This document shows, in pieces, positions 1 to 63,429 of a DNA stretch of 64,000 bases. The stretch comes from Mobula hypostoma. Lineage: Eukaryota. The notes beneath the pieces are model-generated. The model did not search any database, had not been told where the DNA came from, and saw only the letters and a list, made by a program, of their open reading frames with translations. The translations under genes and the position numbers were made by a program. The stretch's first letter is position 1. Each line of letters opens with the position of its first letter. Location: the NCBI RefSeq assembly GCF_963921235.1, contig NC_086107.1:116190001-116254000 (forward strand). Reading direction: 5' to 3'.

Positions 1-835
1 GATCCCACGGGGGTGATCCCTGGGAGAGTGGGATCTCACGGGGGTGATCCTGCAGAGTGTGGGATCCCACGGGGGTGATCCCCGGGAGAGTGGGATCTCA
101 CGGGGGTGATCCTGCGGAGTGTGGGATCCCACGGGGGTGATCCCTGGGAGTGTGAGATCCCACGGGGGTGATATCTGGGAGAGTGGGATCTCACGGGGGT
201 GATCCCCAGGAGTGTAGGACCCCACAGGGGTGATCCTGCAGAGTGTGAGATCCCACGGGGGTGATCCCCGGGAGTGTGGGATCTCACGGGGGTGATCCTG
301 CAGAGTGTGGGATCCCACGGGGGTGATCCTGCGGATTGTGGGATCCCACGGGGGTGATCCCTGGGAGTGTGAGATCCCACGGGGGTGATCCCTGGGAGAG
401 TGGGATCTCACGGGGGTGATCCTGCAGAGTGTGGGATCCCACGGGGGTGATCCCCGGGAGAGTGGGATCTCACGGGGGTGATCCTGCGGAGTGTGGGATC
501 CCACGGGGGTGATCCCTGGGAGTGTGAGATCCCACGGGGGTGATATCTGGGAGAGTGGGATCTCACGGGGGTGATCCTCAGGAGTGTGGGATCTCACGGG
601 GGTGATCCTGCAGAGTATGGGATCCCACGGGGGTGATCCCCGGGAGAGTGGGATCCCACGGGGGTGATCCCCGGGAGTGTGAGATCCCACGGGGGTGATC
701 CTGCAGAGTGTGGGATCTCACGGGGGTGATCCCTGGGAGAGTGGGATCCCACAGGGGTGATCCTGCAGTGTGGGATCCCACGGGGGTGATCCTGCAGAGT
801 GTGGGATCCCCATGGGGGTTGTTCCCTGGGATGGT
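1..835. repeat. Minisatellite, ~30-32 bp unit (GGGATCCCACGGGGGTGATCCTGCAGAGTGT), intronic
   Basis: Direct tandem repetition from the window start. Confidence 0.95.
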
Positions 836-867: not shown

Positions 868-925
868 CTTCCCAAAGCCGAAGCTGTGTGTCCCACCCAA
901 ACTGCCGACGTCAGACCGGGATGTC
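868..925 (-). CDS. TEX14-like coding exon 5
   Basis: cttcag| acceptor, AAG|gtaagt donor; ends in HSFGFGK, like TEX14 YSFGFGK. Confidence 0.85.
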
Positions 926-1040
926 CTGAAGAGGAAGCAGTGGGTAGTGACTGTCTGACAGAGAATTCTCCCGAATGTTATCACCCAGCAGCCCCACTAT
1001 CCAAAACTTCTCATCAATTGCCCCCCACTATAGACAGGCG

Positions 1041-1074
<34 letters not shown>

Positions 1075-4000
1075 GAAACACACACAGACACACACACACT
1101 AAACCTGTGAGCTGTTTGACTGGGGTGGGGCCATCATGGTCTTGCAGAGAGTTGGGTCTGCACAAACCCCTTTCCTGGGGGGAGGTGAAGGGGGATCCCT
1201 CGCTGTCAGGTCAGCTGGGTTGAGAAATGGCAGGTGGAGTTCAAGCCAGAAATGTGTCAAGTGATTCACTTTAGAAGGTCGAACTTCAAGGCAGAATACA
1301 GGGTTAATGGCAGGATACAACAGCGTGGAGGAACAGAGGGACCCTGGGGTTCACAACCACAGACGCCTCATGCAAATTGACAGGATTGTTGAGAAGGTGT
1401 ACAGTGTGTTGGTCTTCTTTAGTCAGGGGATTGAGTTGAAAAGCTGCGAGGTCTATAAAACCCTGGTCAGAACACACTCTGTCGTGTCACCACAGAGGGC
1501 TGATTTGACAGATGATGAGAGGATAGATCGAGTGGACAGCCAGAGGTATTTTCCCAGGGTGGCAAAAGCCAACACCACAGGACAATCCTTTGAAGGTGAC
1601 AGGAGAAAAGTTTGGGGGGGGGTATTCAGAGGTAGATTTTTTTTGAAACAAGGAAGTGCTGGTTGTGTGGAATGTAGTAGTGGCAGATAAATTACAAACA
1701 TTTAAGACCCTGAGATAGGCAGAGGATGGACAGAAAAATGGAGGGCCATGTGGCAGGGAAGAGTCAGATTGCTGGTGGAGTACGTTATTAGTTCACAGTT
1801 CAAAGTACACAGACCATATATAGTACAATTTTCAGATTCATCTTCTCGCAGAAAACCACAGAACAAAGAAACACAATGAATTCACAAAATAAAAGCACAA
1901 ACCACAAAGACAGTCATACATCCACAGCCATGAAGAAAGGTTCAGTACAGAGGTGAGTAAACCCTCCAGAGTAGTGAGCTGAACACTGTTTGCCCTCCAC
2001 CCTCAGTCTTAACGCCTTAATCTCTTTAAATCTGGCTCAGTGTTTAAATTGGTGAAACACCTCTTCGTTATCTGCTCTCAGGCTGGGCTCCACAAGTCAG
2101 TCCAGCCACAAGTCCACTCTAGCAGTGGCTATACCTGTACATTTCAGAGTCCAGCTCGTCCAGTATTTCAGGATACCACAAAATCGCACGGTCATACAGA
2201 AAATTCAAAAGTGGGAAATTACACGCCTTGCATTTCAGTGATCGTTGTTCCAAAAGAGTAGATTTAGCAGAATTGTTAGTAGTTATCTTTGCAACCTGCT
2301 GGTGCGGACAGGGAGACCACACTCTCTGCTGGTGCGGACAGGGAGACCACACTCTCTGCTGGTGCGGACAGGGAGACCAGACTAACTCTGCTGGTGCGGA
2401 CAGGAAGACCACACTAACTCTGCTGGTGCAGACAGGCAGACCACACTAACTCTGCTGGTGTGGTGGACAGGGAGACCAATTTAACTCTGCTGGTGTGGAC
2501 GGGAGACCACACTAACTCTGCTGGTGTGGACGGGAGACCACACTAACTCTGCTGGTGCGGAGGGGGAGGCCTCACTAACTCTGCTGGTGTGGACAGGGAG
2601 ACCACACTAACTTTGCTGGTGCGGACAGGGAGACCACACTAACTCTGCTGGTGCGGACATGAAGACCACACTAACTCTGCTGGTGCAGACAGGGAGACCA
2701 CAGTAACTCTGCTGGTGCGGACAGGGAGACCACACTAACTCTGCTGGTGCGGACGGGAGACCACACTAACTCTGCTGGTGCGGACAGGGAGACCAAACTA
2801 ACTCTGCTGGTGCGGACAGGGAGACCAAACTAACTCTGCTGGTGCGGACAGAGAGACCAAACTAACTCTGCTGGTGTGTTGTATAGGGAGACCACACTAA
2901 CTCTGCTGGTGTGTTGTACAGGGAGACCACACTAACTCTGCTGGTGTGGACGGGAGACCACACTAACTCTGCTGGTGCGGACAGGGAGACCACACTAACT
3001 CTGCTGGTGCGGACAGGGAGACCACACTAACTCTGCTGGTGGGTTGTACAGGGAGACTACACTAACTCTGCTGGTGTACGAGAGGGAGACCACACTAACT
3101 CTGCTGGTGCGGACAGGGAGACCACACTAACTCTGCTGCTGTGGACGGGAGACCACACTAACTCTGCTGGTGTGGACGGGAGACCACACTAACTCTGCTG
3201 GTGTGGACAGGGAGACCACACTAACTCTGCTGGTGTGGACGGGAGACCACACTAACTCTGCTGGTGTGGAGAGGAAGACCACACTAACTCTGCTGGTGTG
3301 GTGGACAAGGAGACCACACTAACTCTGCTGGTGTGGACAGGGAGACCACACTAACTCTGCTGGTGTGGACGGGAGACCACACTAACTCTGCTGGTGTGGT
3401 GGACGGGGAGACCACACTAACTCTGCTGGTGTGTTGTATAGGGAGACCACACTAACTCTGCTGGCGTGGAGAGGGGGACCACACTAACTCTGCTGGTGCA
3501 GACAGGAGACCACACTAACTCTGCCGGTCGGACAGGGAGACCACACTAACTCTGCTGGTGTGGACAGGGAGACCACACTAACTCTGCTGGTGTGGTGGAC
3601 AGGGAGACCACACTAACTCTGCTGGTGTGTTGTACAGGCAGACCACACTAACTCTGCTGGTGTGGACGGGAGACCACAATAACACTGCTGGTGCGGACAG
3701 AGAGACCACACTAACTCTGCTGGTGTGGACAGGGAGACCATACTAACTGCTGGTGTGTTGTACAGGGAGACTACGCTAACTCTGCTGGTGTGGACGGGAG
3801 ACCACACTAACTCTGCTGGTGTAGAGAGGGAGACCACACTAACTCTGCTGGTGCAGACAAGGAGACCACACTAACTCTGCTGGTGTGGACAGGGAGACCA
3901 CACTAACTCTGCTGGTATGGACAGGAGACCACACTAACTCTGCTGGTGCGGACAGGGAGACCATACTAACTGCTGGTGTGTTGTACAGGGAGACTACGCT

Positions 4001-7000
4001 AACTCTGCTGGTGTGGACGGGAGACCACACTAACTCTGCTGGTGTGGTGGACAGGGAGACCACACTAACTCTGCTGGTGCAGACAGGGAGACCACACTAA
4101 CTCTGCTGGTGCGGACAGGGAGACCACACTAACTCTGCTGGTGCGGAGGGGGAGGCCTCACTAACTCTGCTGGTGTGGACAGGGAGACCACACTAACTTT
4201 GCTGGTGCGGACAGGGAGACCACACTAACTCTGCTGGTGCGGACATGAAGACCACACTAACTCTGCTGGTGCAGACAGGGAGACCACAGTAACTCTGCTG
4301 GTGCGGACAGGGAGACCACACTAACTCTGCTGGTGCAGACGGGAGACCACACTAACTCTGCTGGTGCGGACAGGGAGACCAAACTAACTCTGCTGGTGCG
4401 GACAGAGAGACCAAACTAACTCTGCTGGTGTGTTGTATAGGGAGACCACACTAACTCTGCTGGTGTGTTGTACAGGGAGACCACACTAACTCTGCTGGTG
4501 TGGACGGGAGACCACACTAACTCTGCTGGTGCGGACAGGGAGACCACACTAACTCTGCTGGTGCGGACAGGGAGACCACACTAACTCTGCTGGTGTGTTG
4601 TACAGGGAGACTACACTAACTTTGCTGGTGTAGAGAGGGAGACCACACTAACTCTGCTGGTGCGGACAGGGAGACCACACTAACTCTGCTGCTGTGGACG
4701 GGAGACCACACTAACTCTGCTGGTGTGGACGGGAGACCACACTAACTCTGCTGGTGTGGACAGGGAGACCACACTAACTCTGCTGGTGTGGACGGGAGAC
4801 CACACTAACTCTGCTGGTGTGGAGAGGAAGACCACACTAACTCTGCTGGTGTGGTGGACAAGGAGACCACACTAACTCTGCTGGTGTGGACAGGGAGACC
4901 ACACTAACTCTGCTGGTGTGGACGGGAGACCACACTAACTCTGCTGGTGTGGTGGACGGGGAGACCACACTAACTCTGCTGGTGTGTTGTATAGGGAGAC
5001 CACACTAACTCTGCTGGCGTGGAGAGGGGGACCACACTAACTCTGCTGGTGCAGACAGGAGACCACACTAACTCTGCCGGTCGGACAGGGAGACCACACT
5101 AACTCTGCTGGTGTGGACAGGGAGACCACACTAACTCTGCTGGTGTGGTGGACAGGGAGACCACACTAACTCTGCTGGTGTGTTGTACAGGCAGACCACA
5201 CTAACTCTGCTGGTGTGGACGGGAGACCACAATAACACTGCTGGTGCGGACAGAGAGACCACACTAACTCTGCTGGTGTGGACAGGGAGACCATACTAAC
5301 TGCTGGTGTGTTGTACAGGGAGACTACGCTAACTCTGCTGGTGTGGACGGGAGACCACACTAACTCTGCTGGTGTAGAGAGGGAGACCACACTAACTCTG
5401 CTGGTGCAGACAAGGAGACCACACTAACTCTGCTGGTGTGGACAGGGAGACCACACTAACTCTGCTGGTATGGACAGGAGACCACACTAACTCTGCTGGT
5501 GCGGACAGGGAGACCATACTAACTGCTGGTGTGTTGTACAGGGAGACTACGCTAACTCTGCTGGTGTGGACGGGAGACCACACTAACTCTGCTGGTGTGG
5601 TGGACAGGGAGACCACACTAACTCTGCTGGTGCAGACAGGGAGACCACACTAACTCTGCTGGTGCGGACAGGGAGACCACACTAACTCTGCTGGTGCGGA
5701 CGGGAGACCACACTAACTCTGCTGGTGTGGAGTGGAAGACCACACTAACTCTGCTGGTGCGGACGGGAGACCACACTAACTCTGCTGGTGTGGAGTGGAA
5801 GACCACACTAACTCTGCTGGTGTGGAGTGGAAGACCACACTAACTCTGCTGATGCGGACAGGGAGACCACACTAACTCTGCTGCTGTGGTGGACAGGGAG
5901 ACCACACTAACTCTACTGTTGTGGAGAGGAAGACCACACTAACTCTACTGGTGCAGACAGGGAGACCACAGTAACTCTGCTGGTGTGTTGTACAGGGAAA
6001 CTACACTAACTCTGCTGGTGTGGACGGAGACTGCAATAACTCTGCTGGTGTAGTGGCATGGGAGAACACACTAACTCTGCTGGTGCGGACAGGGAGACCA
6101 CACTAACTCTGCTGGTGCAGACAGGGAGACCATACTAACTGCTGGTGTGTTGTACAGGGAGACTACGCTAACTCTGCTGGTGTGGACGGGAGACCACACT
6201 AACTCTGCTGGTGTGGACAGGAAGACCACACTAACTCTGCTGGTGTGGACGGAGACCACACTAACTCTGCTGGTGTGGTGGACAGGGAGAACACACTAAC
6301 TCTGCTGGTGCGGACAGGGAGACCACACTAACTCTGCTGGTGCGGACGGGAGACCACACTAACTCTGCTGGTGTGTTGTACAGGGAGACCACACTAACTC
6401 TGCTGGTGTGGACGGGAGACCACACTAACTCTGCTGGTGTGGAGAGGAAGACCACACTAACTCTGCTGGTGTGGTGGACGAGGAGACCACACTAACTCTG
6501 CTGGTGTGGACAGGGAGACCACACTAACTCTGCTGGTGTGGACGGGAGACCACACTAACTCTGCTGGTGCGGACAGGGAGACCACACTAACTCTGCTGGT
6601 GTGTTGTACAGGGAGACTACACTAACTTTGCTGGTGTAGAGAGGGAGACCACACTAACTCTGCTGGTGCGGACAGGGAGACCACACTAACTCTGCTGCTG
6701 TGGACGGGAGACCACACTAACTCTGCTGGTGTGGACGGGAGACCACACTAACTCTGCTGGTGTGGACAGGGAGACCACACTAACTCTGCTGGTGTGGACG
6801 GGAGACCACACTAACTCTGCTGGTGTGGAGAGGAAGACCACACTAACTCTGCTGGTGTGGTGGACAAGGAGACCACACTAACTCTGCTGGTGTGGACAGG
6901 GAGACCACACTAACTCTGCTGGTGTGGACGGGAGACCACACTAACTCTGCTGGTGTGGTGGACGGGGAGACCACACTAACTCTGCTGGTGTGTTGTATAG

Positions 7001-10000
7001 GGAGACCACACTAACTCTGCTGGTGCGGACAGGGAGACCACACTAACTCTGCTGGTGTGGTGGACAGGGAAACCACACTAACTCTGCTGGTGCGGACGGG
7101 AGACCACACTAACTCAGCTGGTGCGGACAGGGAGACAACACTAACTCTGCTGGTTGGACAGGGAAACCACTCTAACTCTGCTGGTGCGGACAGGGAGACC
7201 ACACTAACTCTGCTGGTGCGGACGGGAGACCACACTAACTCTGCCGGTCGGACAGGGAGACCACACTAACTCTGCTGGTGTGGACGGGGGACCACACTAA
7301 CTCTGCTGGTGTGGACAGGGAGACCACACTAACTCTGCTGGTGTGGACAGGGAGACCACACTAACTCTGCTGGTGTGGACAGGGAGACCACACTAACTCT
7401 GCTGGTGCGGACGGGAGACCACACTAACTCTGCTGTTGTGGAGAGGGAGACCACACTAACTCTGCTGGTGCGGACGGGAGACCACACTAACTCTGCTGGC
7501 GTGGAGAGGGGGACCACACTAACTCTGCTGGTGCAGACAGGAGACCACACTAACTCTGCCGGTCGGACAGGGAGACCACACTAACTCTGCTGGTGTGGAC
7601 AGGGAGACCACACTAACTCTGCTGGTGTGGTGGACAGGGAGACCACACTAACTCTGCTGGTGTGTTGTACAGGCAGACCACACTAACTCTGCTGGTGTGG
7701 ACGGGAGACCACAATAACACTGCTGGTGCGGACAGAGAGACCACACTAACTCTGCTGGTGTGGACAGGGAGACCATACTAACTGCTGGTGTGTTGTACAG
7801 GGAGACTACGCTAACTCTGCTGGTGTGGACGGGAGACCACACTAACTCTGCTGGTGTAGAGAGGGAGACCACACTAACTCTGCTGGTGCAGACAAGGAGA
7901 CCACACTAACTCTGCTGGTGTGGACAGGGAGACCACACTAACTCTGCTGGTATGGACAGGAGACCACACTAACTCTGCTGGTGCGGACAGGGAGACCATA
8001 CTAACTGCTGGTGTGTTGTACAGGGAGACTACGCTAACTCTGCTGGTGTGGACGGGAGACCACACTAACTCTGCTGGTGTGGTGGACAGGGAGACCACAC
8101 TAACTCTGCTGGTGTGGACGGGAGAACACATTAACTCTGCTGGTGCAGACAGGGAGACCACACTAACTCTGCTGGTGCGGACAGGGAGACCACACTAACT
8201 CTGCTGGTGCGGACGGGAGACCACACTAACTCTGCTGGTGTGGAGTGGAAGACCACACTAACTCTGCTGGTGCGGACGGGAGACCACACTAACTCTGCTG
8301 GTGTGGAGTGGAAGACCACACTAACTCTGCTGATGCGGACAGGGAGACCACACTAACTCTGCTGCTGTGGTGGACAGGGAGACCACACTAACTCTACTGT
8401 TGTGGAGAGGAAGACCACACTAACTCTACTGGTGCAGACAGGGAGACCACAGTAACTCTGCTGGTGTGTTGTACAGGGAAACTACACTAACTCTGCTGGT
8501 GTGGACGGGAGACCACACTAACTCTGCTGGTGTGGACGGAGACTGCAATAACTCTGCTGGTGTAGTGGCATGGGAGAACACACTAACTCTGCTGGTGCGG
8601 ACAGGGAGACCACACTAACTCTGCTGGTGCAGACAGGGAGACCATACTAACTGCTGGTGTGTTGTACAGGGAGACTACGCTAACTCTGCTGGTGTGGACG
8701 GGAGACCACACTAACTCTGCTGGTGTGGACAGGAAGACCACACTAACTCTGCTGGTGTGGACGGAGACCACACTAACTCTGCTGGTGTGGTGGACAGGGA
8801 GAACACACTAACTCTGCTGGTGCGGACAGGGAGACCACACTAACTCTGCTGGTGCGGACAGGGAGACCACACTAACTCTGCTGGTGTGTTGTACAGGGAG
8901 ACCACACTAACTCTGCTGGTGTGGACGGGAGACCACACTAACTCTGCTGGTGTGGAGAGGAAGACCACACTAACTCTGCTGGTGTGGTGGACGAGGAGAC
9001 CACACTAACTCTGCTGGTGTGGACAGGGAGACCACACTAACTCTGCTGGTGTGGACGGGAGACCACACTAACACTACTGGTGTGGAGAGGAAGACCACAC
9101 TAACTCTGCTGGTGTGGTGGACGGGGAGACCACACTAACTCTGCTGGTGTGGAGAGGGAGACCACACTAACTCTGCTGGTGCGGATGGGAGACCACACTA
9201 ACTCTGCTGGCGTGGAGAGGGAGACCACACTAACTCTGCTGGTGTGGACGGGAGACCACACTAACTCTGCTGGTCGGACAGGGAGACAACACTAACTCTG
9301 CTGGTGCGGACGGGAGACCACACTAACTCTGCTGGTCGGACAGGGAGACCACACTAACTCTGTCGAGAAGGTTGAGAAGGGTATGGGCCGAACGTGAGTA
9401 ATTGAGACTGGCTCAGATGGGAATCTGGCTGGCATGGACTGGATGAGGCGCAAGGGCTAATTTCTGAGTGTGTGGGGGGGAATGGAATACCACAAGGGGA
9501 GGGGCTGGGAATGGATCTGACCTTGCAGGGAGAATGGTTCTCAAACAATAGATGGTGGTGTGCAGGCTGTGTTCCCAAGTGGGGGCACTAACACCAGAAG
9601 CAAGGATTAGAAGGCACACTTTTACACGAGGGGAGATAGTTAGAGGCTGTTTTCCACCTGGAAAGTGGCCTATGTATGGAATGAATCATGGAGATCGTTG
9701 GGCTTCATTCCCTGCAGCGTAGGAGACTGAGGGGTGACCTTACAGACGTCTATAAACCCACGAGAGGCACAGATAGGGTGAATGTACAGAGTCTTTTTCC
9801 CCAGCGGTGGGGAATCAAGACCCAGAGTGCACAGCGTTAAGTTGAGAGGGGAGAGATTTAAAAGGAACCCAAAAAAAAACATTTTTTTTTCCCAGAAGAT
9901 GGTGCGTATATGAACGAGCTGCCAGAAGAAGCAATTGAAGCAGGTACATTAACAACATTTGAAGGATAGGTACATGGAGAGGAAAGCTATGGGCCAAAGG

Positions 10001-13000
10001 CAAACAGAGGGGCAGGCTCGGCTGGGAATAGAGGCCGGTGTGAACCTACCTGAGATGGGGCAGAGGCAGCCGTGGGCAGCTGGGGTACCGGGGGAGAGAG
10101 GCTGAACTGCGGGAGCGTAGCAGCCTCAGTCCCCTGACCGACTCGCTCTGCCATATCAGCTGACTCATTCGCACCCGATAGTGGCTCAGTAGCTCCAGCA
10201 CCTGGGGGGCGGGGGGGAGAGGACAGTCAGTTCGAGTGGCAGCCTGCGCTGGCTATGGGAGGTAGAGGGAGGAGGAGAGGAAGAGTAAGGGGGGGGGAAG
10301 AGGGAAGGAAGGTAGTACGCAAGGGAGGGATGGGGGTGGAGGACACAAGGAGGAGGATGGTTGATTGGGGGCAGCATCCTTGTCTGAGAGACGGGGACGG
10401 CATGGGGGATGGGTAACGGACACGGTCAGGGAGCACAGGTGGGGGGAGGAGGATGGATGGGGGGATCTGGACGGGGGGGCTTTCTTGACGGGGAGGGTAG
10501 GGTAGGGGTATGAGGGTGGGTGGTAAGGGTAGAGGAATTGGGTTTGGGGTGGAAAACAGGAAGGGGAGGGGGGAAAGTACAGAGAGAGCTAGTGAGTGAC
10601 AGAAATAGTAAAGGATAGAGAAGGTGGATTCAGAGAGATGGGTTGAGAGTTAGACAGATAGAACATTAGACAGAGCAGCAGGAGTCGGCCATCATTAAGG
10701 CCATGGACTCAGCTCCACTGACCTACCTTTTCCCCATAATCCTTAATTTCCCTACTATGCAAAAAGGGTGGGAATCAGTGAGGGGTTGGGGGTCAAGGAG
10801 AGGGGAGAGAGAGTCGAGGAGTGAGGGGCTCAGACTGGTGTGAGCTGGAGAGGGGAGAGAGTGAGTGGCAGGTGAGAGGAAGAGTCCATGGGGGTGGGAA
10901 GCAACGGGGGACACAGATGGGTCCAGTGTTCAGAGAGACGACAGACCGTTCCTTCCTCACTCCCTCACCCTACCTTGCGGTTTTTCGGAGAGCCAGCGGC
11001 ACGAGCCCAGTCCTCGGGTGATCGCCCCAGGCTGTCGTGTAACCGGAGATCTCCCCCGGTGTCCAGGAGAGTGGCCAACGCATCCGGGAGGCAGGAGAGG
11101 GTGGCAGCGTGGACAGGCGTGCTCCCGCGGTGGCAGCGGCTAGAGGAGTGGTAGTGCGGAAGGGGGAGATGGATCAGCAGGACACGGTGGAGAGGACCAC
11201 CCACCCCACCAAACACAAACCCAGCACGCTGTGCTAAGCTGCAGGTTCAAACCTGAGCATCAGTTTATCACAGCCTGCCCTGCTCCAACCACGGACACCA
11301 AAGTCTCTACTTCCTCAAGTGGCTGAAAAAACCTGGCACATCCCCGGCGGCCTTCCTTCCTTTCTATCAATGCACCATAGAACGCATCACGGTTCGGTCC
11401 GGCAGCTGCTCCGTCCATGAACGCAAGAAACCGCAGAGCTGTGGACATGGCTCAGCCCAGCACAGAACCTACCTGACCCTCCATGGACCGTCTGCCTCAG
11501 TAAAGCAGCCTCACCCACCCGACATTCTCTCTTCTCCCCACTGCCATCCGGCAGAGAACACAAAAGCCTGGAAGTACGTACCATCAGCTTTACCCCACTG
11601 TTCCCTACATCTCACAATCTCCCTCGTCATGGCCCTGGTACAGTACTCTCTGCCTGCACAGCCCTTTCTCTGTAAATGTAACACTTCATTCTGAATCCTG
11701 TTACTGTTTTACTCTGTTCTTCCTCACTGCACTGTGTAACCATCTGTCTGAACAGTAAGTACCTTGGTACCTGTGACAATGATGAACCAACTGATATTCC
11801 ACCTGAAGTAGTTCTTTCTGCCTACGCAATACAGTCATAGAGTGCAGCAACAGGCCCTTCAGCCCATCTAGTCCATTCCAACCTGGTCTTCTGCCTACTC
11901 CCACCGACCTCAGCCTCCATACCCCTGCCATCCATGTCCCTATTCAAACTTCTCTTAATCGAGCTCAATCCACTATTTCTGCTGGCAGCTCGTTCCACAC
12001 TCTCAGCACCCTCTGTCTGAAGAAGATTCCCCTCAAACATTATGTTCTAATCTCACCCAACGTCAATGGAAAGAGCCTTTATATATTTACCTACTCTACC
12101 TCTCTCATTATTTTGTTTACCTCTGTCTAATCTCTGTCAGTCTCCTGTGCCTCGGTGAATCAAGCTTTCACCTATTAAACTTTTGCCTAGCTCAGGTTGT
12201 CAAGTTCCAGCACCATCCTTGTACATTTTCTCTGCATTCTTTCAATCTTCCTCTAAGTCAGTAACCAGGACTGCACACAATCCTCCAAATGTGGTCCCAC
12301 TATCTTATACAACTTCAACATAACATCCCATCTCCTGTACTCAATACATTGAGGCCAATGTGCCAAAACCTTTCCTTACAACCCTGTCTAGCTGTGATGC
12401 CACTTTCAATGAATTATGCGCCTGTATTCCCAGATCCCTTGGTTCCACCACACTCCTCAATGCCCCACCGTTCAACCTGTAAGACCTATGCTGCCTGGTC
12501 CTACCAAGGTGCTAAACCTCGCACTTGTCTGCGGTAAATTCCATCTGCTGTTTTTCCAGCTGAAGCAGAGCCCTCTGCAAACCACGACAGTCTTCCTCGC
12601 TGTCCACTACACCCCCAGTCTTGGTGTCATCCGCAAATTTGCTGATCCAGTTCACCACATTATCATCCAGATCGCTGATATAAATAACAAACAACAGACG
12701 CCCCCACCAAGGCTGCGGCACTCCACTAGTCACAGGCCTCCAGTCAGAAGCAAACATCTACTACCACTCTCTGGCTTCTCCCACAGAGCCAATGCCTAAT
12801 CCAATTTACCACCTCCTCCTGAACACCGAGCGACTGAACCTTCTTGACCAACCTCCCTTGTCGAATGCCTTGCTGAAGTCCTGCAGAAGCCACTGCCTTG
12901 CCTTCGTCACCTCTCATGGTAACTCCCTCAAAGAACTCTGTAAGATTGGTTAGACACGATCTATCACACACAAAGCCATGTTGACAATCCCTAACCAGTC

Positions 13001-13893
13001 TGTGCCTATCCAAATATTTATAAGCATATCCGGTCCTTTAGACTATCTCTGCCTTGAAGCTCAGGATGATTTCAATCTCTCTGTTGGCGCTCCTGCGATA
13101 GCACTTGCCTCCCACAGCAACAGGCCCTTCAGCCCATCTAGTCCATTCCAACCTGGTCTTCGCCTACTCCCATCGAACACCTCGTCAGGGGACTTATCCA
13201 CCCTGATTTGCCTCAAGACAACACTCCACCCCAGCAGAGCGAGGCCACTCACAGGTTGGGATCAGCCCCGTTACTCAGCAGCAGATGGACCAGGTCCGAA
13301 TGCCCCTGAGTGGCAGCGACGTAGAGGGGCGATTCGCCGGCGCTGTTCCTCACGTCCGGTGGACAACCTGCAACACCAGAGCAGCCAGTCACCAGGTGAC
13401 GGGAGAGATCAGTGCCCAGGGTCAGGGGTCAGTGACAGGAGAGAGGTCCCTGGGGTCAGGGGTCAGGGGTACGGACCATGTCAATGACTGGGATCAGGGG
13501 GTGGGAAAAGGTCAGTCTTGGGTCAAGGAGAGGGGTCAGGGGTCGGTGGAGGCGAGAGGTCAGTGCCCGTGATCAGGGATAGGTGGGGGTGAAGTCAGTG
13601 TGATAGTTCACATATCGGGGAGGGGAAGGTGGGGGTGAAGTCAGTGTGATAGTTCACGGATCAGGGGAGGGGAACAGTCAGTGCCTGGGCTCGGGGGTGA
13701 GGGAAGAGTTCAGAGGGCAGGGGGCAGGGTTCAGGGTAAGGAGGGATGCTAAAAGCCCATCAGGACCTTGGGCCAGCAGCCTCTCCATCTGCCGCCGCCT
13801 GCCCCGCTGGGCGCAGAGATGCAGGAGGGCTTCATCCACCTCCAGATCCTGGGTCGAACCTAACCGCTCCAGGCAGCCCTGTGACAGCGTCAT
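868..13893 (-). CDS. TEX14-like ankyrin-repeat (pseudo)kinase gene, 5' part (5 coding exons, 206 codons; continues beyond left edge)
   Basis: Exons 13893-13767, 13367-13253, 11139-10974, 10201-10050 and 925-868, all GT-AG with phases 1,2,0,2,0 and no stops. ATG is in a CCACCATG Kozak context. Product: MTLSQGCLERLG...LLHLCAQRGRRRQMERLLAQG-CPPDVRNSAGESPLYVAATQGHSDLVHLLLSNGADPNL-RCHRGSTPVHAATLSCLPDALATLLDTGGDLRLHDSLGRSPEDWA...-VLELLSHYRVRMSQLI...-THSFGFGK. This matches recalled human TEX14 motifs (DPNHRCFDGSTPVHAAAFS, LLDAGGDLRLHDERG, IVEFMQRCASHMQAII, YSFGFGK). Confidence 0.88.
1038..1099. repeat. (CG)n(CA)n microsatellite
   Basis: gcgcgcgcgcgc followed by (ca)n. Confidence 0.95.
1215..1790 (+). 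mobile_element. Degenerate CR1 LINE 3' fragment
   Basis: Remnants of EQRDPGVH, YKTLVR, IDRVDSQ. Confidence 0.75.
2296..9362. repeat. 7-kb VNTR, ~32 bp unit (CACTAACTCTGCTGGTGTGGACAGGGAGACCA), with higher-order duplications
   Basis: About 220 tandem units of 30-35 bp; variant blocks recur at ~1.55 kb and ~2.5 kb offsets. Confidence 0.97.
9365..10020 (+). mobile_element. Degenerate CR1 3' end fragments
   Basis: Typical CR1 3' sequence (aggagactgaggggtgacct..., gagctgccagaag). Confidence 0.65.
10050..10201 (-). CDS. TEX14-like coding exon 4
   Basis: ccccag| acceptor, AG|gtaggt donor; open 152 nt; VLELLSHYRVRMSQLI aligns with the TEX14 post-ankyrin helix. Confidence 0.8.
10974..11139 (-). CDS. 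TEX14-like coding exon 3 (ankyrin repeat 3)
   Basis: ctctag| acceptor, AAG|gtaggg donor; encodes GSTPVHAAT...LLDTGGDLRLHD. Confidence 0.92.
11290..11800 (+). mobile_element. Degenerate Rex1/Babar-like LINE 3' fragment
   Basis: Remnants of the RT C-terminus (ctcttctccccactgccatccggcaga = LFSPLPSGR). Confidence 0.6.
11835..13030 (-). mobile_element. CR1 LINE fragment (RT)
   Basis: QHGFV..SCLTNLTEFFE, VTSGVPQ, ISKFADDTK. Confidence 0.88.
13253..13367 (-). CDS. TEX14-like coding exon 2 (ankyrin repeat 2)
   Basis: ttgcag| acceptor, |gtgagt donor; encodes GESPLYVAATQGHSDLVHLLLSNGADPN, a canonical ankyrin repeat. Confidence 0.9.
13767..13893 (-). CDS. TEX14-like first coding exon (ankyrin repeat 1)
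   Basis: Kozak ATG at 13893; 127 nt; donor CAAG|GTCCTG is weak but phase-compatible with the next exon. Confidence 0.75.
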
Positions 13894-13959
13894 GGTGGAT
13901 CGCACGGTTGCCGGGATGGGATGGGAAGGGAGGAGCACGGGGTGTGGGGGGGGGAGGGC

Positions 13960-14492
13960 TGTCAGCAGAGAGCACAGGAAGATTCCACAGTGGGGTGGGT
14001 AGCAGAGAGCTTGGGAAGATCCCACAGTGAGGAGTGGGTAATGGAGAGCACAGGAAGATCCCACAGTGAGGAATGGGTAGTCAGCAGAGAGCACAGGAAG
14101 ATCCCACAGTGAGGAATGGGTAGTCAGCAGAGAGCACGGGAAGATCCCACAGTGGGGAGTGGGTAACGGAGAGCACAGGAAGATCCCACAGAGAGGAATG
14201 GGTAGTCAGCAGAGAGCACGGGAAGATCCCACACTGGGGAGTGGGTAACGGAGAGCACAGGAAGATCCCACAGTGAGGAATGGGTAGTCAGCAGAGAGCA
14301 CGGGAAGATCCCACAGTGGGGAGTGGGTAACGGAGAGCACAGGAAGATCCCACAGTGAGGAATGGGTAGTCAGCAGAGAGCACGGGAAGATCCCACAGTG
14401 GGGAGTGGGTAACGGAGAGCACAGAAAGATCCCACAGTGAGGAATGGGTAGTCAGCAGAGAGCACGGGAAGATCCCACAGTGGGGAGTGGGT
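13960..14492. repeat. Minisatellite with alternating 39/43-bp units upstream of the TEX14-like ATG
   Basis: GAGAGCAC(A/G)GGAAGATCCCACAGTG... repeated ~13 times. Confidence 0.93.
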
Positions 14493-14519
14493 GAGTAGCC
14501 GGAGGGCAGTGTCCCCCCC

Positions 14520-15210
14520 CACCCCGGGGCGCCGTTTGGCCGAGGTTTTTCCTCAGTGAGACGTCAGTCCCGTCGCGTTTCCACTCCGCTCCCGCCCGGA
14601 TGACGTCGATGCCCCGCCCCCTCCAAACGGCTCCCCTGATGACATCAGATCCAGCAGCTCCCCGTGACGTCACGCCGACCCCTCCCTTCTCCGTGACCTC
14701 AGATATTGCTTCCTAGGTAACGATGATGTCATCGCGTCCAAATTACTCCGTGACACGTGACGTCTTCCCCCTCATCCAACCGATCAACAGCCCTCGCCTA
14801 CTCCAAATATATCCCCGTGACGGCATATCAGTCCCTAAACCGCTTTTGTGCCTTATTTTCGACAGACTCTCGGTTCTCTCGACGTCGTCGCCTTTCGCTG
14901 GCGCTCATTCTGGAGTGAGAGAAACTTTGTGGAGATTGGGGTGGGTGAGCGCGTCACCTCAGGGAGCAGGCGCAGTTGGAGCCAACCGGGGCGGGAAGGG
15001 AAGACGTATGCGCACTTGCTCGACAGCCGGCGTCGGAGCGAAAAGCGCGCGGAGACATCAGTCTGCATCGCTGATTGGTGGATATGGGAGGCGGCCAAGA
15101 ATTATTTGCTGATTAGTGGACAGTGTGGCGCGTCTTCAGTGATTGGACGAGGCCACCCAGCCCTCTTCAGTGATTGGACAAACTCTCTCGTCGTCCGTCA
15201 GCCGCTGATC
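14520..15210 (-). promoter_or_regulatory. CpG-island promoter (probably of the TEX14-like gene) with a CRE cluster, an RFX X-box-like site, GC boxes and CCAAT boxes
   Basis: CpG-rich; perfect TGACGTCA at 14665-14672 plus ~6 CRE variants; GCTTCCTAGGTAAC at 14708-14721; TGATTGG three times between 15072 and 15177. Confidence 0.7.
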
Positions 15211-15654
15211 AGTAGAGACTATTAGTCCCCCGGATAGGTCAACTCGAAACCATTCAGCCCGTCCACTCTGCTAGCCCATTCCCACAAGCTCTTCGGCGCT
15301 CAGTATTCCAGAACCAAAGGATCTACTGTTTCTCTCCTAAAGGACACTGTCGAGACCCCCTGCGCGACACTCCAACCAGGTTGCACAGAAACAAATATTC
15401 GGCCCATCCATTCAATGCCAGCCCAGATTTCCACCTGAGCCAGTCCCATTTGCCCTCATATGTACCTTCATAAGTGTCACTTATATTTTGATGAGGAGGC
15501 ATACAGGATTGAGATAACTCAACAACCTTGCACTTGACGCCTGTGAGACCAAGGAACTGATTGTGGCCTTCAGGAAGGGGAAGTCAGAGGAGAACACACA
15601 CCAGTCGTCATCAAGGGGTCAGCAGTGGGAAGGGTGGGCAGCCTGAAGTTCCTT

Positions 15655-16185
15655 CAGAGAGAGAGCTTCTGACAGGTCGGAAAGAAGAGATTAAAAAAGG
15701 AGCGTTTCACGGGGCTAGGCGCATTCCCAGCGGGCCAGCCGATTGGGAGAGAGAGTGAGCTTCGCACAGGTCGGGAAGAAATGTGCAGACGCAGTATCTT
15801 GTCATCGTGCAAGGACGCTGAGAAAACTCCGAAATAAAAGAGAGGCACTGTCTAGCGGTGCAGTCGTCGAAGGAGCCGTCGTCGGAGTAGTGTAAGTCAG
15901 AGAAGTAAGGCTTTGGCTCATCGGGACTTCGGCATGGATGGGCTGAGACGAGGTAAGTTACTTTGCCCCCGCCCCTACCCCTAACAATAATAGTGGGTAT
16001 GACTGTGAGGCCAGTTTTCTGTTCTGGGTGCCAGATGTGGAATGTCCAGGAGACTTCCAGCCTCCCTGATGGCCACATCTGCACCAGGTGCATCAAGATA
16101 GGGAACTGGAGCTGCAGCTCGATGACCTTTGGGATAGTGAGGATGTGATAGACAGAAACTACAGGCAGGTGGGTAGTCACCCCGT
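15655..16185 (+). mobile_element. CR1 5'UTR and ORF1 N-terminus (Cys-rich finger), 3'-truncated
   Basis: MTVRPVFCSGCQMW...DGHICTRC resembles the CR1 ORF1 start. Confidence 0.7.
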
Positions 16186-16734
16186 GTCTGTGAATATCGT
16201 GTCACTGACCCTCTGTGTCTGTGAATATTGTGTCACTCACACTCTGTACACACAGACTTACACATCTGACAAGAAACTTCACTTTGACTTCGAGTTTTCT
16301 TTTTCCTTCCCTCTCTCCTCACCTTGTCCCCCTTTGCCTTTCCCTCCCACTCCTCCCTCACTCATCATATTTGATGTGTTTCCTGTCAATGTTATCATGT
16401 CGGATGATCTGTACTGGAACCAGCTTGCAAGTTCCATCGTAAAGAAAGCGTCTCTACTTTCTGAGAAGTTTATATAAATTCAGCAAGTCACCACAAGCTT
16501 TGACAAACTTCTGCAGCTGCACAGGGGAGCATATCCTGAGTGGTTGCTGCACAGCAATGGAAAAGCCGACACAAAGTGGTTGTCTGAGCAGATGTACAGT
16601 GGTATGCAAAAGTTTGGGCACCCCTGGTCAAAATTTATGTCACTGTGAATAGTTAAGTGGGTAGAAGATGAACTGATCTCCAAAAGTCATAAACTTAAAG
16701 ATCAAACATTCTTTTCAACATTTTAAACAAGATT

Positions 16735-19700: not shown

Positions 19701-20372
19701 CCTCGCAAATTAGTTTAAACCCTCCCGAACCATGCTAGCAAACCTACCTGCAAGGATATTGCTCCCCCTCGAGTTCAGGTGCAACCCATCCAATCTGTAC
19801 AGGTCCCACCTTCCCCAGAAGAGATCCCAATGATCCAAAAATCTAAAACCCTGCTCCCTGCACCAACTCCTCAGCCACGCATTCAACTGCCATCTCCTCC
19901 AATTCTTACCATCACTGTCACGTAGCACTGTCAGCAATCCTGAGAACGTCACCCTTGAGGTCCTGTTCTTCAGCCTTCTGCCTAGTTCCCGAAACTCACA
20001 TTTCAGGACCTCATCCCTCTTCCTGCCTATGTCGTTGGTACCAACATGTATCACGACTTCTGGCTGCTTTCCCTCTCGTACCAGGATGTCGTGCACCTGG
20101 TCGGAGACATCCCGGATCCTGGCACCCGGGAGGCAACAAACCAGGCGGGTGTCCTTCTCATGTCCACAAAATCTCCTGTCTGCTCCCCTGACTATAGAGT
20201 CTCCAATGACGACAGCTCTCCTCTTCTCCGTCCCACCCTTCTGCACCACAGGGTCAGACTCAGTGCCGGAGGCCCTGCCACCGTGGCTCACACCTGGTCG
20301 GTCGTCCCCGCCAACAGTATCCAGGACGGTAAACTGGATTCAGGGCAATGGCTACGGGGGTGCTCTGCACTG
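16735..20372 (-). mobile_element. CR1 LINE, nearly full length (ORF1 SGNH esterase and ORF2 EN-RT, frameshifted), inserted in Tc1
   Basis: ORF1 19710-20291 (VIGDSIVR, HVGTND, DGLHL); ORF2 pieces YLNARS/ITETW, GDFN, SDH, KFADDTK; (TTCTATG) tail. Confidence 0.95.
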
Positions 20373-21066
20373 AATAATTGTCCCAACAATCAGCAACCAT
20401 GGGCTCCTCTAAGCAGCTGCCTTGCACTCTGAAAATTAAAAGAGATGATGCCCACAAAGCAGGAGAAGGCTATAAGAAGATAGCAAAGCGTTTACAGGTA
20501 GCCGTTTCCTCAGTTCATAACGTAATTAGGAAATGGCAGTTAACAGGAACGGTGGAGGTCAAGTTGAGGTCTGGAAGATCAAGAAAATTTTCTGTGAGAA
20601 CTGCTCGTAGGACTGCTAGAAAGGCAAATCAAAACCTCCGTTTGACTGCAAAAGACCTTCAAGAAGATTTAGCAGACTTTGGAGTGGTGGTGCACTGTTC
20701 TACTGTGCAACGACACTGAACAAATATGATCTTCGTGGAAGAGTCATCAGAAGAAAACCTTTCCTGCGTCCTCACCACAAAATTCAGCGTCAGAAGTTTG
20801 CAAAGGAATATCTAACCAAGCCTGATGCATTTTGGAAACAAGTCCTAGGGACTGATGAAGTTAAAATAGAACTTTTTGGCCACAATGAGTAAGGTATGTT
20901 TGGAGAAAAAAGGGTGCAGAATTTCACGAAAAGAACACTTTTCCAACCATTAAGCACGGGGGTGGATCAAACATGCTTTGGGCTTGTGTTGAAGCCAGTG
21001 GCACGGGGAACGTTTTACTGGTAGAAGGAGAGAATGAATTCAATTAAATACCAGCAAATTCTGGAA

Positions 21067-21403
21067 ACAATCCGGGTCACTTTACGATCGAGGAACGTGT
21101 TTGTAGACCGGATATTGAACTGTTTGCTGTTGGACTCCGGCCATATTGCACTGAAATACAACACTGGGCGGCACGGGAGGTCGTTCCTGCCTGCGGCCAT
21201 CAAATGTGCAGCTCCTCCCATGGAGGGTCAGACACCCTGAGCCAATAGACTGGTCCTGGACTTATTTTCCATCTGGCATAGTTTGCATTTTGTTGTTTGA
21301 TTGTTTGTGGTTTTTGTATTGCTATATTTATACTCTATTCTTGGTTGGTGCGGCTGTAACGAAACCCAATTTCCCTCGGGATCAATAAAGTATATCTATC
21401 TAT
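21067..21403 (+). mobile_element. Short internally deleted Rex1/Babar derivative inserted in the Tc1 transposase
   Basis: Interrupts YQQILE|NFTPSVKKL; endonuclease-like piece (ELFAVGLRPY) joined to a 3' end (RSFLPAAIK); AATAAA and (TATC)n tail. Confidence 0.7.
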
Positions 21404-21577
21404 CAAACTTCACACCGTCTGTAAAAAAGCTGAAGATGAAAAGACGATGGCTTCTACAACAGGATAATGATCCTAAACACACCTCAAAATCCACAATGGA
21501 TTACCTCAAGAGACGTAAGCTGAAGGTTTTGCCATGGCCCTCACAGTCCCCTGACCTAAACATCATTGAATATCTGT

Positions 21578-25450: not shown

Positions 25451-25549
25451 TTCTGCTGTTTGCCTTTTCTTTCTTTCGGGAATTTTAACCCAATCAATTT
25501 ACCCCATCCCAAATTTAGTGTTCGAAATCGCGGACGAGAACCCCACTTA

Positions 25550-63400: not shown

Positions 63401-63429
63401 CTCTCCCATCTCCCCAGCCCCCACCCCGA

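What the first reader, a model, noticed from the sequence alone, without database searches (positions are those of the whole stretch)
868..13893. Divergent TEX14-like gene head-to-head with GDPD3: candidate second TEX14 (ohnologue)
Seen: five phase-compatible exons encode three ankyrin repeats with TEX14-specific signatures (DPNxRCxxGSTPVHAA, LLDxGGDLRLHD, SFGFGK at an exon end). The rest is strongly diverged (CLERLG vs CPVQLG; exon 4-5 linker unrelated). Known: TEX14 is the germ-cell intercellular-bridge protein that blocks CEP55/ESCRT abscission, and I know of only one copy in mammals. Human TEX14 lies near GDPD1/YPEL2 (17q22), whereas GDPD3/YPEL3/TBX6/MAPK3 mark the paralogous 16p11.2 block. 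Inference: because the neighbour here is GDPD3-like, this gene may be a whole-genome-duplication paralogue of TEX14 that mammals lost. That would imply a two-paralogue ring-canal/abscission-control system in this lineage.
Basis: partly seen in the sequence, partly recalled or inferred. Interest (0 to 1): 0.85.

Follow-up and report, generated by a model that had tools for sequence, protein, structure and literature searches.

The report
Ancient TEX14-like paralogue beside GDPD3
The flagged exons start a real, spliced second TEX14-family gene of a devil ray; this gene copy dates from before sharks and bony vertebrates split, survives in many reptiles, amphibians and mammals, and lacks the motif by which TEX14 keeps germ-cell bridges open.

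Summary
Five GT-AG, phase-compatible minus-strand exons (13893..868) encode residues 1-206 of an annotated 923-aa 'TEX14-like' protein (three ankyrin repeats, then a pseudokinase left of the window). Spliced contigs in two public runs join exons 1-2-3-4.

The genome has exactly two TEX14-type loci. This one (contig C45) lies 20 kb from a GDPD3-side gene and 50 kb from an aldolase. A canonical TEX14 lies on C71, 200 kb from GDPD1.

Trees split the family 100/100 into canonical TEX14 and a 'TEX14-like' clade, each with cartilaginous fishes and tetrapods. So the duplication predates crown jawed vertebrates, and the paired GDPD, aldolase, coronin and septin loci fit a block or whole-genome origin.

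'Lost in mammals' is wrong: the like-clade includes marsupials, rodents and carnivores. No ray-finned fish, bird or primate was seen among 43 members.

A shared abscission-blocking role is unsupported. GPPx3Y is in 0 of 43 like-proteins against 53 of 81 TEX14. The like-clade has Arg for the beta-3 Lys and its own conserved C-terminal helix.

I found no paper on this paralogue; databases only carry automatic 'TEX14-like' names.

The parts
13767..13893 (-). Coding exon 1 of the TEX14-like gene (ATG at 13893; residues 1-42 plus one base; first ankyrin repeat begins). The transcript runs on upstream past 14000 as 5'UTR.
   Evidence: Sequence read; tblastn 100% to P0001 residues 1-43. The X2 contig covers 13765-14000 and joins 13765 to 13365.
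13253..13367 (-). Coding exon 2 (residues 43-81; second ankyrin repeat, ends ...GADPN)
   Evidence: Pfam Ank_4 E 1.1e-08 and Ank E 9.8e-08 on this exon alone. 100% to P0001. Joined to exon 3 in X1 and X2 contigs (13253/11139).
10974..11139 (-). Coding exon 3 (residues 81-137; third ankyrin repeat with RCHRGSTPVHAA and LLDTGGDLRLHD)
   Evidence: 100% to P0001. It has the same exon borders as exon 3 of the C71 paralogue. Joined to exon 4 in X1 and X2.
10050..10201 (-). Coding exon 4 (residues 138-188; helix after the ankyrin stack, then a disordered linker)
   Evidence: AF2 gives a helix at 134-156 and pLDDT under 50 from residue 153.
868..925 (-). Coding exon 5 (residues 188-206, ends SFGFGK). 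The remaining 14 coding exons lie left of the window, down to C45:116145032.
   Evidence: The next exon (residues 206-250) is at C45:116189207-116189341, about 660 bp left of the window start.
2296..9362 (.). 7.07-kb tandem array (32-bp unit, 219 copies) that fills most of intron 4
   Evidence: Tandem Repeats Finder
1..831 (.). 31-bp tandem array (26.8 copies) in intron 5
13961..14492 (.). 82-bp tandem array (6.4 copies) directly upstream of the ATG, partly inside the 5'UTR
   Evidence: the X2 contig reaches 14000 and shows repeat-slip joints there.
33859..45297 (+). Neighbouring GDPD3-side gene, divergent orientation. It has 10 coding pieces, from ATG at 33859 to TGA at 45295-45297.
   Evidence: tblastn of P0126 covers residues 1-321 at 65-100% identity per piece. 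Start and stop were read. Pfam GDPD hits window 37524-37688. The tree places its orthologue with GDPD3 sequences, 92/96.
14500..33800 (.). Spacer between the two genes: decayed LINE and Tc1/mariner remains, with no other host-gene domain found among ORFs of 48 aa or more
   Evidence: Pfam hits are RVT_1 at 17578-17880(-) and 28120-28329(+), Exo_endo_phos at 19330-19734(-), and Sleeping-Beauty-type HTH plus DDE_3 at 20378-21591(+). 6 of the 150 ORFs have a hit, and 0 of the 20 ORFs from 29271-33880.

Best explanation
The exons are the 5' part of an intact, transcribed 19-exon gene spanning C45:116145032-116203893 (58.9 kb). It encodes a 923-aa ankyrin-repeat pseudokinase that is a deep paralogue of TEX14, here called TEX14-like. 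Shown: the genome has two TEX14-type genes. They are 41% identical over the ankyrin plus kinase module (residues 24-510) and unrelated beyond it. The two clades separated before cartilaginous and bony vertebrates split. Each copy sits beside one member of the GDPD1/GDPD3 pair, and further paired families lie on the same two contigs. Inferred: the pair arose by duplication of a chromosome block, most likely in the early-vertebrate genome duplications (about 0.65). The like-copy was later lost in ray-finned fishes, in birds and probably in some mammal lines. Likely mechanism (inferred): TEX14-like is a non-catalytic scaffold. Like TEX14 it lacks the HRD and DFG aspartates, and in addition it has Arg in place of the beta-3 Lys and LP(L/P)E in place of APE. 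It keeps the ankyrin-pseudokinase docking module of TEX14 but not the [GA]PPx2-3Y peptide that plugs CEP55. Instead it carries its own conserved long helix (residues 699-751, core SLQESAxLLxxAxxSLExLExRFxSGI) in a disordered tail. I therefore expect it to be recruited by the same kind of partners as the TEX14 N-terminal module, and to act through a different C-terminal partner rather than by blocking ESCRT recruitment at CEP55. The confidence given covers the identity and age of the gene; the mechanism alone I rate at about 0.5.
For: Gene model. P0001 maps to 18 exon matches on C45 plus the short exon 5, with no frame break. Transcription and splicing: contigs of 2694 nt (X1) and 2039 nt (X2) join the exons, while repeat-free intron bins have zero depth (10311-10447 and 13462-13598), so the runs behave as RNA. 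Two loci only: of 34 matches of P0001 in the genome, 18 are on C45, 4 are on C71 (kinase and ankyrin exons) and 12 are ankyrin-only matches elsewhere. The C71 exons read as canonical TEX14, and P0021 is its annotated product. Trees: quick IQ-TREE with 64 rows gives the split at 100; careful IQ-TREE with 36 rows x 601 columns gives 100/100; FastTree of all 124 proteins gives 43 like-clade and 81 canonical, support 100. Four species have one protein in each clade: Mobula hypostoma, Rhinatrema bivittatum, Zootoca vivipara and Microtus pennsylvanicus. Synteny: GDPD; aldolase with only two loci, C45:116254418-116257356 and C71:3368464-3382379; coronin at C45:115700043 and C71:21343394; septin at C45:96.79 Mb and C71:39.82 Mb. 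Motifs: strict GPPx3Y is in 0 of 43 like-clade proteins against 53 of 81 canonical. The relaxed motif sits at one conserved place in 25 of 27 canonical proteins, including 4 of 4 cartilaginous-fish proteins, and at no common place in 35 like-clade proteins. Beta-3 is Arg in 34 of 43 like-clade proteins (9 unread) and Lys in 73 of 81 canonical; other motifs are. The helix motif is clear in 21 of 28 aligned like-clade rows and is modelled as helix 699-751 with pLDDT 67-79. The kinase fold matches SYK, LCK and JAK domains at TM 0.73-0.80. The CEP55-plug mechanism of TEX14 is taken from PMC13216642 (passages read).
Against: No outgroup: the root between the clades is inferred from the doubled species pattern, not shown. 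The GDPD3-side clade has 92/96 support, not starred, and NCBI calls the neighbour's orthologue 'GDPD1-like'. No T-box or Yippee partner was found on C45, so the block is not a full copy of the human 16p11.2 order that I recall. The ray and mammal stems of the like-clade are long (0.79 and 0.87 changes per column, against 0.1-0.3 for canonical TEX14), which could mean relaxed constraint. In eutherians the helix motif and the HR of HRD are degenerate. The tissue of runs X1 and X2 is unknown, so germline expression is not shown. The functional model rests on motif presence and absence only. The correspondence of the like-clade helix to the TEX14 region upstream of GPPx3Y is weak (hhalign E 0.019, probability 2.5%).
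Confidence: 0.85

Rival explanations
1. It is the single TEX14 orthologue of this species, moved next to GDPD3 and strongly diverged.
For: NCBI names the orthologues in two other rays simply 'TEX14' or 'tex14' (P0002, P0003).
Against: A second locus on C71 reads as canonical TEX14 and has its own annotated 1068-aa protein, P0021. The window gene groups with the like-clade at 100/100, away from P0021.
Confidence: 0.01
2. It is a duplicate that arose within cartilaginous fishes and only looks old because it evolves fast (long-branch effect).
For: The ray stem is very long (0.79), and letter make-up deviates in several rows.
Against: Lungfish, caecilian, newt, turtle, squamate, marsupial and eutherian proteins share the clade, in species-tree order. 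They also share derived characters: beta-3 Arg, LP(L/P)E, the C-terminal helix and no GPPx3Y. The PMSF mixture model was used to limit long-branch artefacts.
Confidence: 0.02
3. It is a transcribed pseudogene or decaying relic without protein function.
For: Evolution is fast. The kinase motifs are more degenerate than in TEX14. Large tandem arrays sit in introns and in the 5' region.
Against: All 19 coding exons are open and collinear with the 923-aa model. Splicing is precise in two runs. The protein is 91% identical over residues 1-520 to that of another ray family, P0002. 56 columns are invariant and a further 68 nearly invariant across 31 like-clade proteins from sharks to mammals.
Confidence: 0.05
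4. The duplication is ancient but was a local or segmental duplication, not part of the vertebrate whole-genome duplications.
For: No outgroup or cyclostome data could be obtained. T-box and Yippee partners are missing on C45. On C71 the paired genes are spread over 36 Mb, whereas on C45 three of them lie within 112 kb.
Against: Five unrelated families (TEX14, GDPD, aldolase, coronin, septin) each have one locus on C45 and one on C71. Aldolase has only these two loci in 3.48 Gb. The human 16p11.2 / chromosome 17 paralogy of these same families is established knowledge (recalled, not tested here).
Confidence: 0.25
5. One reading: TEX14-like is a second abscission blocker that works with TEX14 on CEP55/ESCRT at germ-cell bridges.
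For: It shares the ankyrin-pseudokinase module with TEX14 (41% identity). Rays have a lineage-specific SPPPGY at residues 667-679. There is a weak positional match of its helix to the TEX14 segment just upstream of GPPx3Y.
Against: GPPx3Y is in 0 of 43 like-clade proteins, and no relaxed motif sits at a conserved position in the 35 examined. SPPPGY is one residue short of the motif and is confined to 3 ray proteins. The tails are otherwise unrelated.
Confidence: 0.12

Closest known systems
TEX14 (inactive serine/threonine-protein kinase TEX14, the germ-cell intercellular-bridge factor)
   Same: It has three N-terminal ankyrin repeats followed by a pseudokinase without HRD or DFG aspartates. 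It shares the signature motifs GSTPVHAA, GGDLRLHD and (S/C)FGFGK. Exon 3 has the same borders in both ray genes. Identity is 41% over residues 24-510 within one genome.
   Different: It forms a separate clade (100/100). It has no [GA]PPx2-3Y CEP55-binding peptide and no C-terminal AHSTLDE block. Beta-3 Lys is Arg and APE is LP(L/P)E. The protein is shorter (median 800 aa against 1412 aa). It has its own conserved tail helix. Its chromosome neighbourhood differs: GDPD3 and aldolase instead of GDPD1 and a T-box pair.
Automatically named 'TEX14-like' proteins of other vertebrates (NCBI predictions for sharks, lungfish, caecilians, newt, turtles, squamates, marsupials, rodents, carnivores)
   Same: These are orthologues of the window gene: one clade of 43 proteins, with the same derived motifs.
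   Different: They exist only as pipeline predictions, and naming is inconsistent ('TEX14', 'TEX14-like', 'uncharacterized'). Eutherian members have lost or blurred the tail helix and the HR of HRD. The ray proteins are the fastest-evolving non-mammal members.
ILK (integrin-linked pseudokinase), as a working analogy only
   Same: It has N-terminal ankyrin repeats followed by a catalytically dead kinase fold that serves as a docking scaffold. This architecture is recalled from established knowledge and was not tested here.
   Different: No specific relationship was found. The best structural matches of the modelled kinase domain are generic tyrosine-kinase-like domains (SYK, LCK, JAK). ILK has no long disordered tail.

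Membership tests
TEX14 family in the broad sense (ankyrin-repeat pseudokinases related to TEX14) | Three N-terminal ankyrin repeats followed by a protein-kinase fold | tested here: met
   Pfam Ank_2 at 24-113 (E 5e-13) and PK_Tyr_Ser-Thr at 281-493 (E 2.9e-20). AF2 helix pairs at 19-41, 56-74 and 89-107, and a kinase fold at 220-510. Foldseek TM 0.73-0.80 to kinase domains.
TEX14 family in the broad sense (ankyrin-repeat pseudokinases related to TEX14) | Family signature motifs (GSTPVHAA, GGDLRLHD, FGFGK) and best sequence matches to TEX14 proteins | tested here: met
   Column counts over 35 like-clade and 29 canonical rows. All 10 hits of exon 3 and all 120 listed hits of residues 1-520 carry the same kinase-plus-ankyrin Pfam pattern; most are named TEX14 or TEX14-like and a few are unnamed or 'uncharacterized'.
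TEX14 family in the broad sense (ankyrin-repeat pseudokinases related to TEX14) | Pseudokinase: catalytic Asp of HRD and Asp of DFG absent | tested here: met
   The window protein has YLHRSLTSHAV and KLGNLEY. No listed pattern in either clade has the aspartates.
Canonical TEX14 (orthologue of the mammalian bridge factor) | Groups with tetrapod TEX14 in a tree | tested here: not met
   It is placed in the other clade; the split is 100/100, 100 and 100. The canonical orthologue of the same genome is P0021 on C71.
Canonical TEX14 (orthologue of the mammalian bridge factor) | GPPx3Y-type CEP55-binding peptide in the tail | tested here: not met
   0 of 43 like-clade proteins against 53 of 81 canonical. 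The relaxed motif sits at a conserved site in 25 of 27 canonical proteins and in no common site in 35 like-clade proteins.
Canonical TEX14 (orthologue of the mammalian bridge factor) | Localisation to germ-cell intercellular bridges, and sterility on loss | not testable with these tools
   Needs tissue expression, imaging and genetics. The tissue of runs X1 and X2 is coded.
Ohnologue pair (product of the early-vertebrate genome duplications) | Duplication older than the cartilaginous/bony vertebrate split | tested here: met
   Both clades hold cartilaginous fishes and sarcopterygians. The root is inferred from this doubled pattern.
Ohnologue pair (product of the early-vertebrate genome duplications) | The two copies lie in paralogous chromosome blocks | tested here: met
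   GDPD1/GDPD3, aldolase, coronin and septin each have one locus on C45 and one on C71. T-box and Yippee partners were not found on C45.
Ohnologue pair (product of the early-vertebrate genome duplications) | Single copy in lineages that branched off before the duplications, and timing at 1R/2R | not testable with these tools
   No eukaryote genome other than the window's own can be searched here, and no cyclostome protein was among the 120 listed hits. PMC13216642 states that TEX14 is traceable only to vertebrates (section 12).

The most novel reading that the evidence does not exclude
TEX14-like is a second, CEP55-independent arm of the vertebrate cytokinesis and germ-cell-bridge machinery. 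On this reading it is a dead-kinase scaffold that shares the TEX14 docking module but signals through its own conserved tail helix. It would have been kept for over 400 million years in sharks, lungfish, amphibians, reptiles and many mammals. It would have gone unnoticed because it is missing or decayed in the standard models (teleosts, birds, and possibly human and mouse).
Probability: 0.25. Interest if true: 0.75.

Novelty: new variant of a known kind. Interest (0 to 1): 0.55.

Why it matters
TEX14 is treated as a single vertebrate invention that makes germ-cell bridges by plugging CEP55. A 2026 review traces 'TEX14' to the vertebrate stem and does not use the word paralog (PMC13216642; passages and section 12 read). 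A sister gene with the same ankyrin-pseudokinase head, a different conserved tail and no CEP55 plug allows two things. First, it separates what the enigmatic N-terminal module does from what the GPPx3Y peptide does. Second, it gives a natural test of whether bridge formation in sharks, reptiles and some mammals uses more than one TEX14-type factor. It also corrects database naming: in three rays the like-gene is labelled TEX14 or TEX14-like without distinction, and both Mobula hypostoma genes are labelled 'TEX14-like'. Finally, it adds a marker pair to the 16p11.2-type / chromosome-17-type paralogous blocks.

Tried and rejected
RNA runs: no RNA holder is listed on record. All three runs are 'RNA?' guesses from one study. 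Run X3 gave no cover on the exons, which says nothing about silence.

Left flank: C45:116095001-116145000 was fetched. Of 81 ORFs of 60 aa or more that passed a complexity filter, I sent the first 55 to Pfam and 0 had a hit. The stretch is mostly repeats, so I could not tell whether a MAPK3-type gene follows.

Window ORFs: 150 ORFs from 14455-29427 and 115 from 29271-33880 and 46125-63999 were scanned. The ORFs of 33.9-46 kb (the GDPD gene itself) and ORFs under 48 aa were not scanned. Only transposon domains appeared, and small exons such as a Yippee gene would be missed.

Yippee (2 loci, neither on C45 nor C71) and T-box (49 matches, none on C45) gave no partner for the C45 block.

Profile comparison of the tails (21 like-clade against 24 canonical rows): the best match has E 0.019 and probability 2.5%, too weak to call the helices homologous.

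PDB sequence search was swamped by ankyrin designs and told nothing about the kinase part.

Literature searches found no paper for SgK424; for TEX14-like, TEX14L and TEX14 paralog/paralogue/ohnolog; for NKF5 together with TEX14; or for five further phrasings. SgK307 gave 4 unrelated papers (listing only). My recollection that the 2002 human kinome list paired SgK307 (TEX14) with an 'SgK424' in one family could not be checked.

Earlier notes of this scan: nothing on this genome or on TEX14.

I considered a complex prediction with CEP55 and did not run it. A miss would be uninformative and I do not claim binding.

Searches failed on a wrong reading frame and were repeated with corrected coordinates.

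Full report
WHAT IS THERE. On the minus strand between 13893 and 868 there are five exons with canonical GT-AG borders: 13893..13767, 13367..13253, 11139..10974, 10201..10050 and 925..868. Their lengths (127, 115, 166, 152 and 58 nt) add up to 206 codons in compatible phases. A search with the exon-3 translation returned 10 proteins among 181 candidates. The best, at 100% identity, is a 923-aa NCBI prediction named 'inactive serine/threonine-protein kinase TEX14-like [Mobula hypostoma]' (P0001). tblastn of P0001 on the window reproduces all five exons. Pfam finds ankyrin repeats at residues 24-113 and a kinase domain at 281-493. So the window holds the ankyrin part and a linker, and the kinase lies to the left. 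In the genome (window = C45:116190001-116254000) P0001 maps to 18 exon matches plus the short exon 5. That makes 19 coding exons from 116145032 to 116203893, all open. Intron 4 is filled by a 7.07-kb array of a 32-bp unit. Intron 5 and the 5' flank hold further arrays.

IS IT USED? One search for public runs listed three runs of one study, none on record as RNA. Laid on 9900-14000, a 2039-nt contig of X2 joins 13765/13365, 13253/11139 and 10972/10199. A 2694-nt contig of X1 joins the last two. Both run on beyond exon 4, and the joints have GT..AG ends on the gene's strand. Repeat-free intron bins have zero depth, so these runs behave as RNA. No intronless copy exists in the genome. The gene is therefore transcribed and spliced as predicted. 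The tissue is unknown.

ONE TEX14 OR TWO? Searching the genome with a bowfin TEX14 (P0006) gave a better match on another contig, C71:8246018-8297932, with further kinase exons there. Its exons 2 and 3 read like canonical TEX14 and have the same borders as the window's exons. Its annotated product is P0021, 1068 aa. Of the 34 genome matches of P0001, 18 are on C45, 4 are on C71 and 12 are ankyrin-only matches elsewhere. The two proteins are 41% identical over residues 24-510 (E 1e-117) and show no significant likeness beyond that.

HOW OLD IS THE SPLIT? A search with residues 1-520 of P0001 found 214 proteins at E up to 1e-10, of which the best 120 were listed. Besides long canonical TEX14 proteins, the list holds shorter 'TEX14-like' proteins from sharks and rays, a lungfish, caecilians, a newt, turtles, squamates, marsupials and eutherians. 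Three trees agree. A quick IQ-TREE of 64 rows gave the split at 100. A careful IQ-TREE of 36 rows and 601 columns gave 100/100. A FastTree of all 124 proteins then held gave 43 like-clade and 81 canonical proteins, support 100. Within the like-clade the order follows the species tree: cartilaginous fishes, lungfish, amphibians, then sauropsids plus mammals. Four species have a protein in each clade: Mobula hypostoma, Rhinatrema bivittatum, Zootoca vivipara and Microtus pennsylvanicus. The only root that avoids extra duplications lies between the clades, so the duplication predates crown jawed vertebrates. This root is inferred, because I could not search cyclostome or invertebrate genomes. Of the 43 like-clade proteins, 6 are cartilaginous fish or unnamed, 1 is lungfish, 3 amphibian, 10 turtle, 13 squamate, 2 marsupial and 8 eutherian. 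None is from a ray-finned fish, bird, frog, coelacanth or primate. That is an absence among listed hits, not a proof of loss. The cluster look-up adds voles, hamster, mustelids, bear and sea lion. 'Lost in mammals' is therefore wrong.

THE NEIGHBOURHOOD. The plus-strand neighbour starts at 33859 (ATG) and ends at 45297 (TGA), in 10 coding pieces. It is divergent from the TEX14-like gene but 20 kb away. Only LINE and Tc1/mariner remains lie between them. Its Mobula birostris orthologue P0126 is named 'GDPD1-like' by NCBI. However, its best representatives are bichir and reedfish GDPD3 (58%), a pipefish GDPD3a and mole-rat GDPD3. The genome's other linked GDPD lies at C71:8015001-8045090, about 200 kb from the canonical TEX14, and matches horse and toad GDPD1 best. 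In a careful 20-row tree the C71 copy sits with GDPD1 (96/90) and the window neighbour's orthologue sits in the GDPD3-side clade (92/96). Aldolase has only two loci in the 3.48-Gb genome. One starts 418 bp right of the window and the other is at C71:3.37 Mb. Coronin (C45:115.70 Mb and C71:21.34 Mb; 6 loci in all) and septin (C45:96.79 Mb and C71:39.82 Mb) are also paired. A T-box pair lies on C71 at 6.1-6.4 Mb, but there is none on C45, and the two Yippee matches are elsewhere. Five families paired on the same two contigs, three of them within 112 kb on C45, point to duplication of a block. From memory, these are the families that mark human 16p11.2 against chromosome 17. I rate an origin in the early-vertebrate genome duplications at about 0.65.

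WHAT DOES IT DO? According to a 2026 review, TEX14 keeps germ-cell bridges open because its GPPX3Y motif occupies CEP55 and keeps ALIX and TSG101 away. The review also says MKLP1 binds TEX14 (PMC13216642, passages read). The strict motif is present in 53 of 81 canonical proteins and in 0 of 43 like-clade proteins. A relaxed form sits at one conserved place in 25 of 27 canonical proteins, including all 4 cartilaginous-fish proteins (AVAPPxCY). In 35 like-clade proteins it appears only at scattered places: a ray-only SPPPGY, or the PPxLY of the activation segment. Both clades lack the HRD and DFG aspartates. In addition, the like-clade has Arg for the beta-3 Lys (34 of 43, 9 unread, against Lys in 73 of 81) and LP(L/P)E for APE. 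The like-clade tail has its own conserved core, SLQESAxLLxxAxxSLExLExRFxSGI. It is clear in 21 of 28 aligned rows: all 20 non-mammals and the bilby. It is partial in panda and degenerate or missing in the other mammals. A looser pattern is in 32 of 43. An AlphaFold2 model built on 31 like-clade sequences has mean pLDDT 56. It shows confident ankyrin (10-150) and kinase (220-510) modules, a long helix at 699-751 (pLDDT 67-79) and a short one at 841-850, and disorder elsewhere. The kinase part matches SYK, LCK and JAK domains at TM 0.73-0.80. A profile comparison puts the like-clade helix opposite the TEX14 segment just upstream of GPPx3Y, but only at E 0.019. My reading is that TEX14-like is a dead-kinase scaffold. 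It keeps the head of TEX14, and so probably some of its docking partners. It has a different effector end and does not block abscission by the CEP55 plug. Only the motif facts are shown; the rest is inference. The long ray and mammal stems (0.79 and 0.87) and the decay of the helix in eutherians warn that constraint may be relaxed in some lines.

NOVELTY. The gene is in the databases as an automatic prediction, so the window gene itself is not new. I found no paper that recognises a TEX14 paralogue. There were zero hits for eleven phrasings, for SgK424, and for NKF5 together with TEX14. The review's evolution section speaks of TEX14 as one gene traceable to vertebrates. PMC8249907 was seen only in the search listing. 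Subscription papers and supplements are outside these searches. I recall, but could not check, that the 2002 kinome list had a second entry beside TEX14.

VERDICT. This is an ancient, expressed TEX14 paralogue in the GDPD3/aldolase block. It is not lost in mammals and shows no sign of the CEP55-blocking motif. It is a new variant of a known kind and of moderate interest.

Noticed in passing
window 57816-58785 and 60125-60418; ORF 59876-60430 (+): A 42-bp minisatellite (23.1 and 7.1 copies) reads in frame as ...RRFTRMLPGLERVQ.... At 59876-60430 it is continuous with the tail of a LINE ORF2-like frame (VRPHLEYCVQFWSP...). So the array seems to have grown out of the 3' end of a reverse-transcriptase gene.
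   Followed up: partly
window 2296-9362, 1-831, 13961-14492: Three tandem arrays lie inside or next to the TEX14-like gene: a 32-bp unit x219 (7.07 kb, intron 4), a 31-bp unit x26.8 (intron 5), and an 82-bp unit x6.4 directly upstream of the ATG and partly transcribed.
   Followed up: partly
just right of the window: C45:116254418-116257356 (+); window 62000-64000: An aldolase gene (one of only two aldolase loci found in the genome) starts 418 bp beyond the window end. The GC-rich last 2 kb of the window (GC 0.63, CCCTGC microsatellite at 62986-63401) is probably its promoter or 5' region.
   Followed up: partly
window 20378-21591 (+); 17578-19734 (-); 28120-28329 (+); 47819-48145 (-): There are decayed mobile elements: a Tc1/mariner transposase (Sleeping-Beauty-type HTH, Tc3 HTH, DDE_3) and LINE pieces (RVT_1, endonuclease).
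   Followed up: yes
protein P0004 (Heterodontus francisci TEX14-like, 1391 aa): The horn-shark orthologue carries a low-complexity insert of about 400 aa (GKGRG / PRVQG repeats) inside the kinase domain, between the DFG-site and the APE-site regions.
   Followed up: no
protein P0003 (Mobula birostris orthologue): The annotated model departs from P0001 in two short stretches, including the beta-3 strand region, which reads ESDGEGV instead of RVTVREL. This looks like a local frame or splice error in that prediction.
   Followed up: no
eutherian TEX14-like proteins P0116-P0123: Eutherian members have AHGG where other members have HR(S/A/T). They have lost or blurred the tail helix and sit on a very long stem (0.87). 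This suggests either a changed role or decay in placental mammals.
   Followed up: partly
GDPD tree: A lamprey and one hagfish GDPD fall on the GDPD3 side, while a second hagfish GDPD falls outside it. This hints that the GDPD1/GDPD3 split predates the cyclostome split, but support is weak.
   Followed up: no
L015-L016 (C45:116095001-116115000): The 20 kb that begin about 30 kb left of the gene's last exon hold almost no complex ORFs: only 1 ORF of 60 aa or more passed a complexity filter. This suggests long satellite-like sequence.
   Followed up: no
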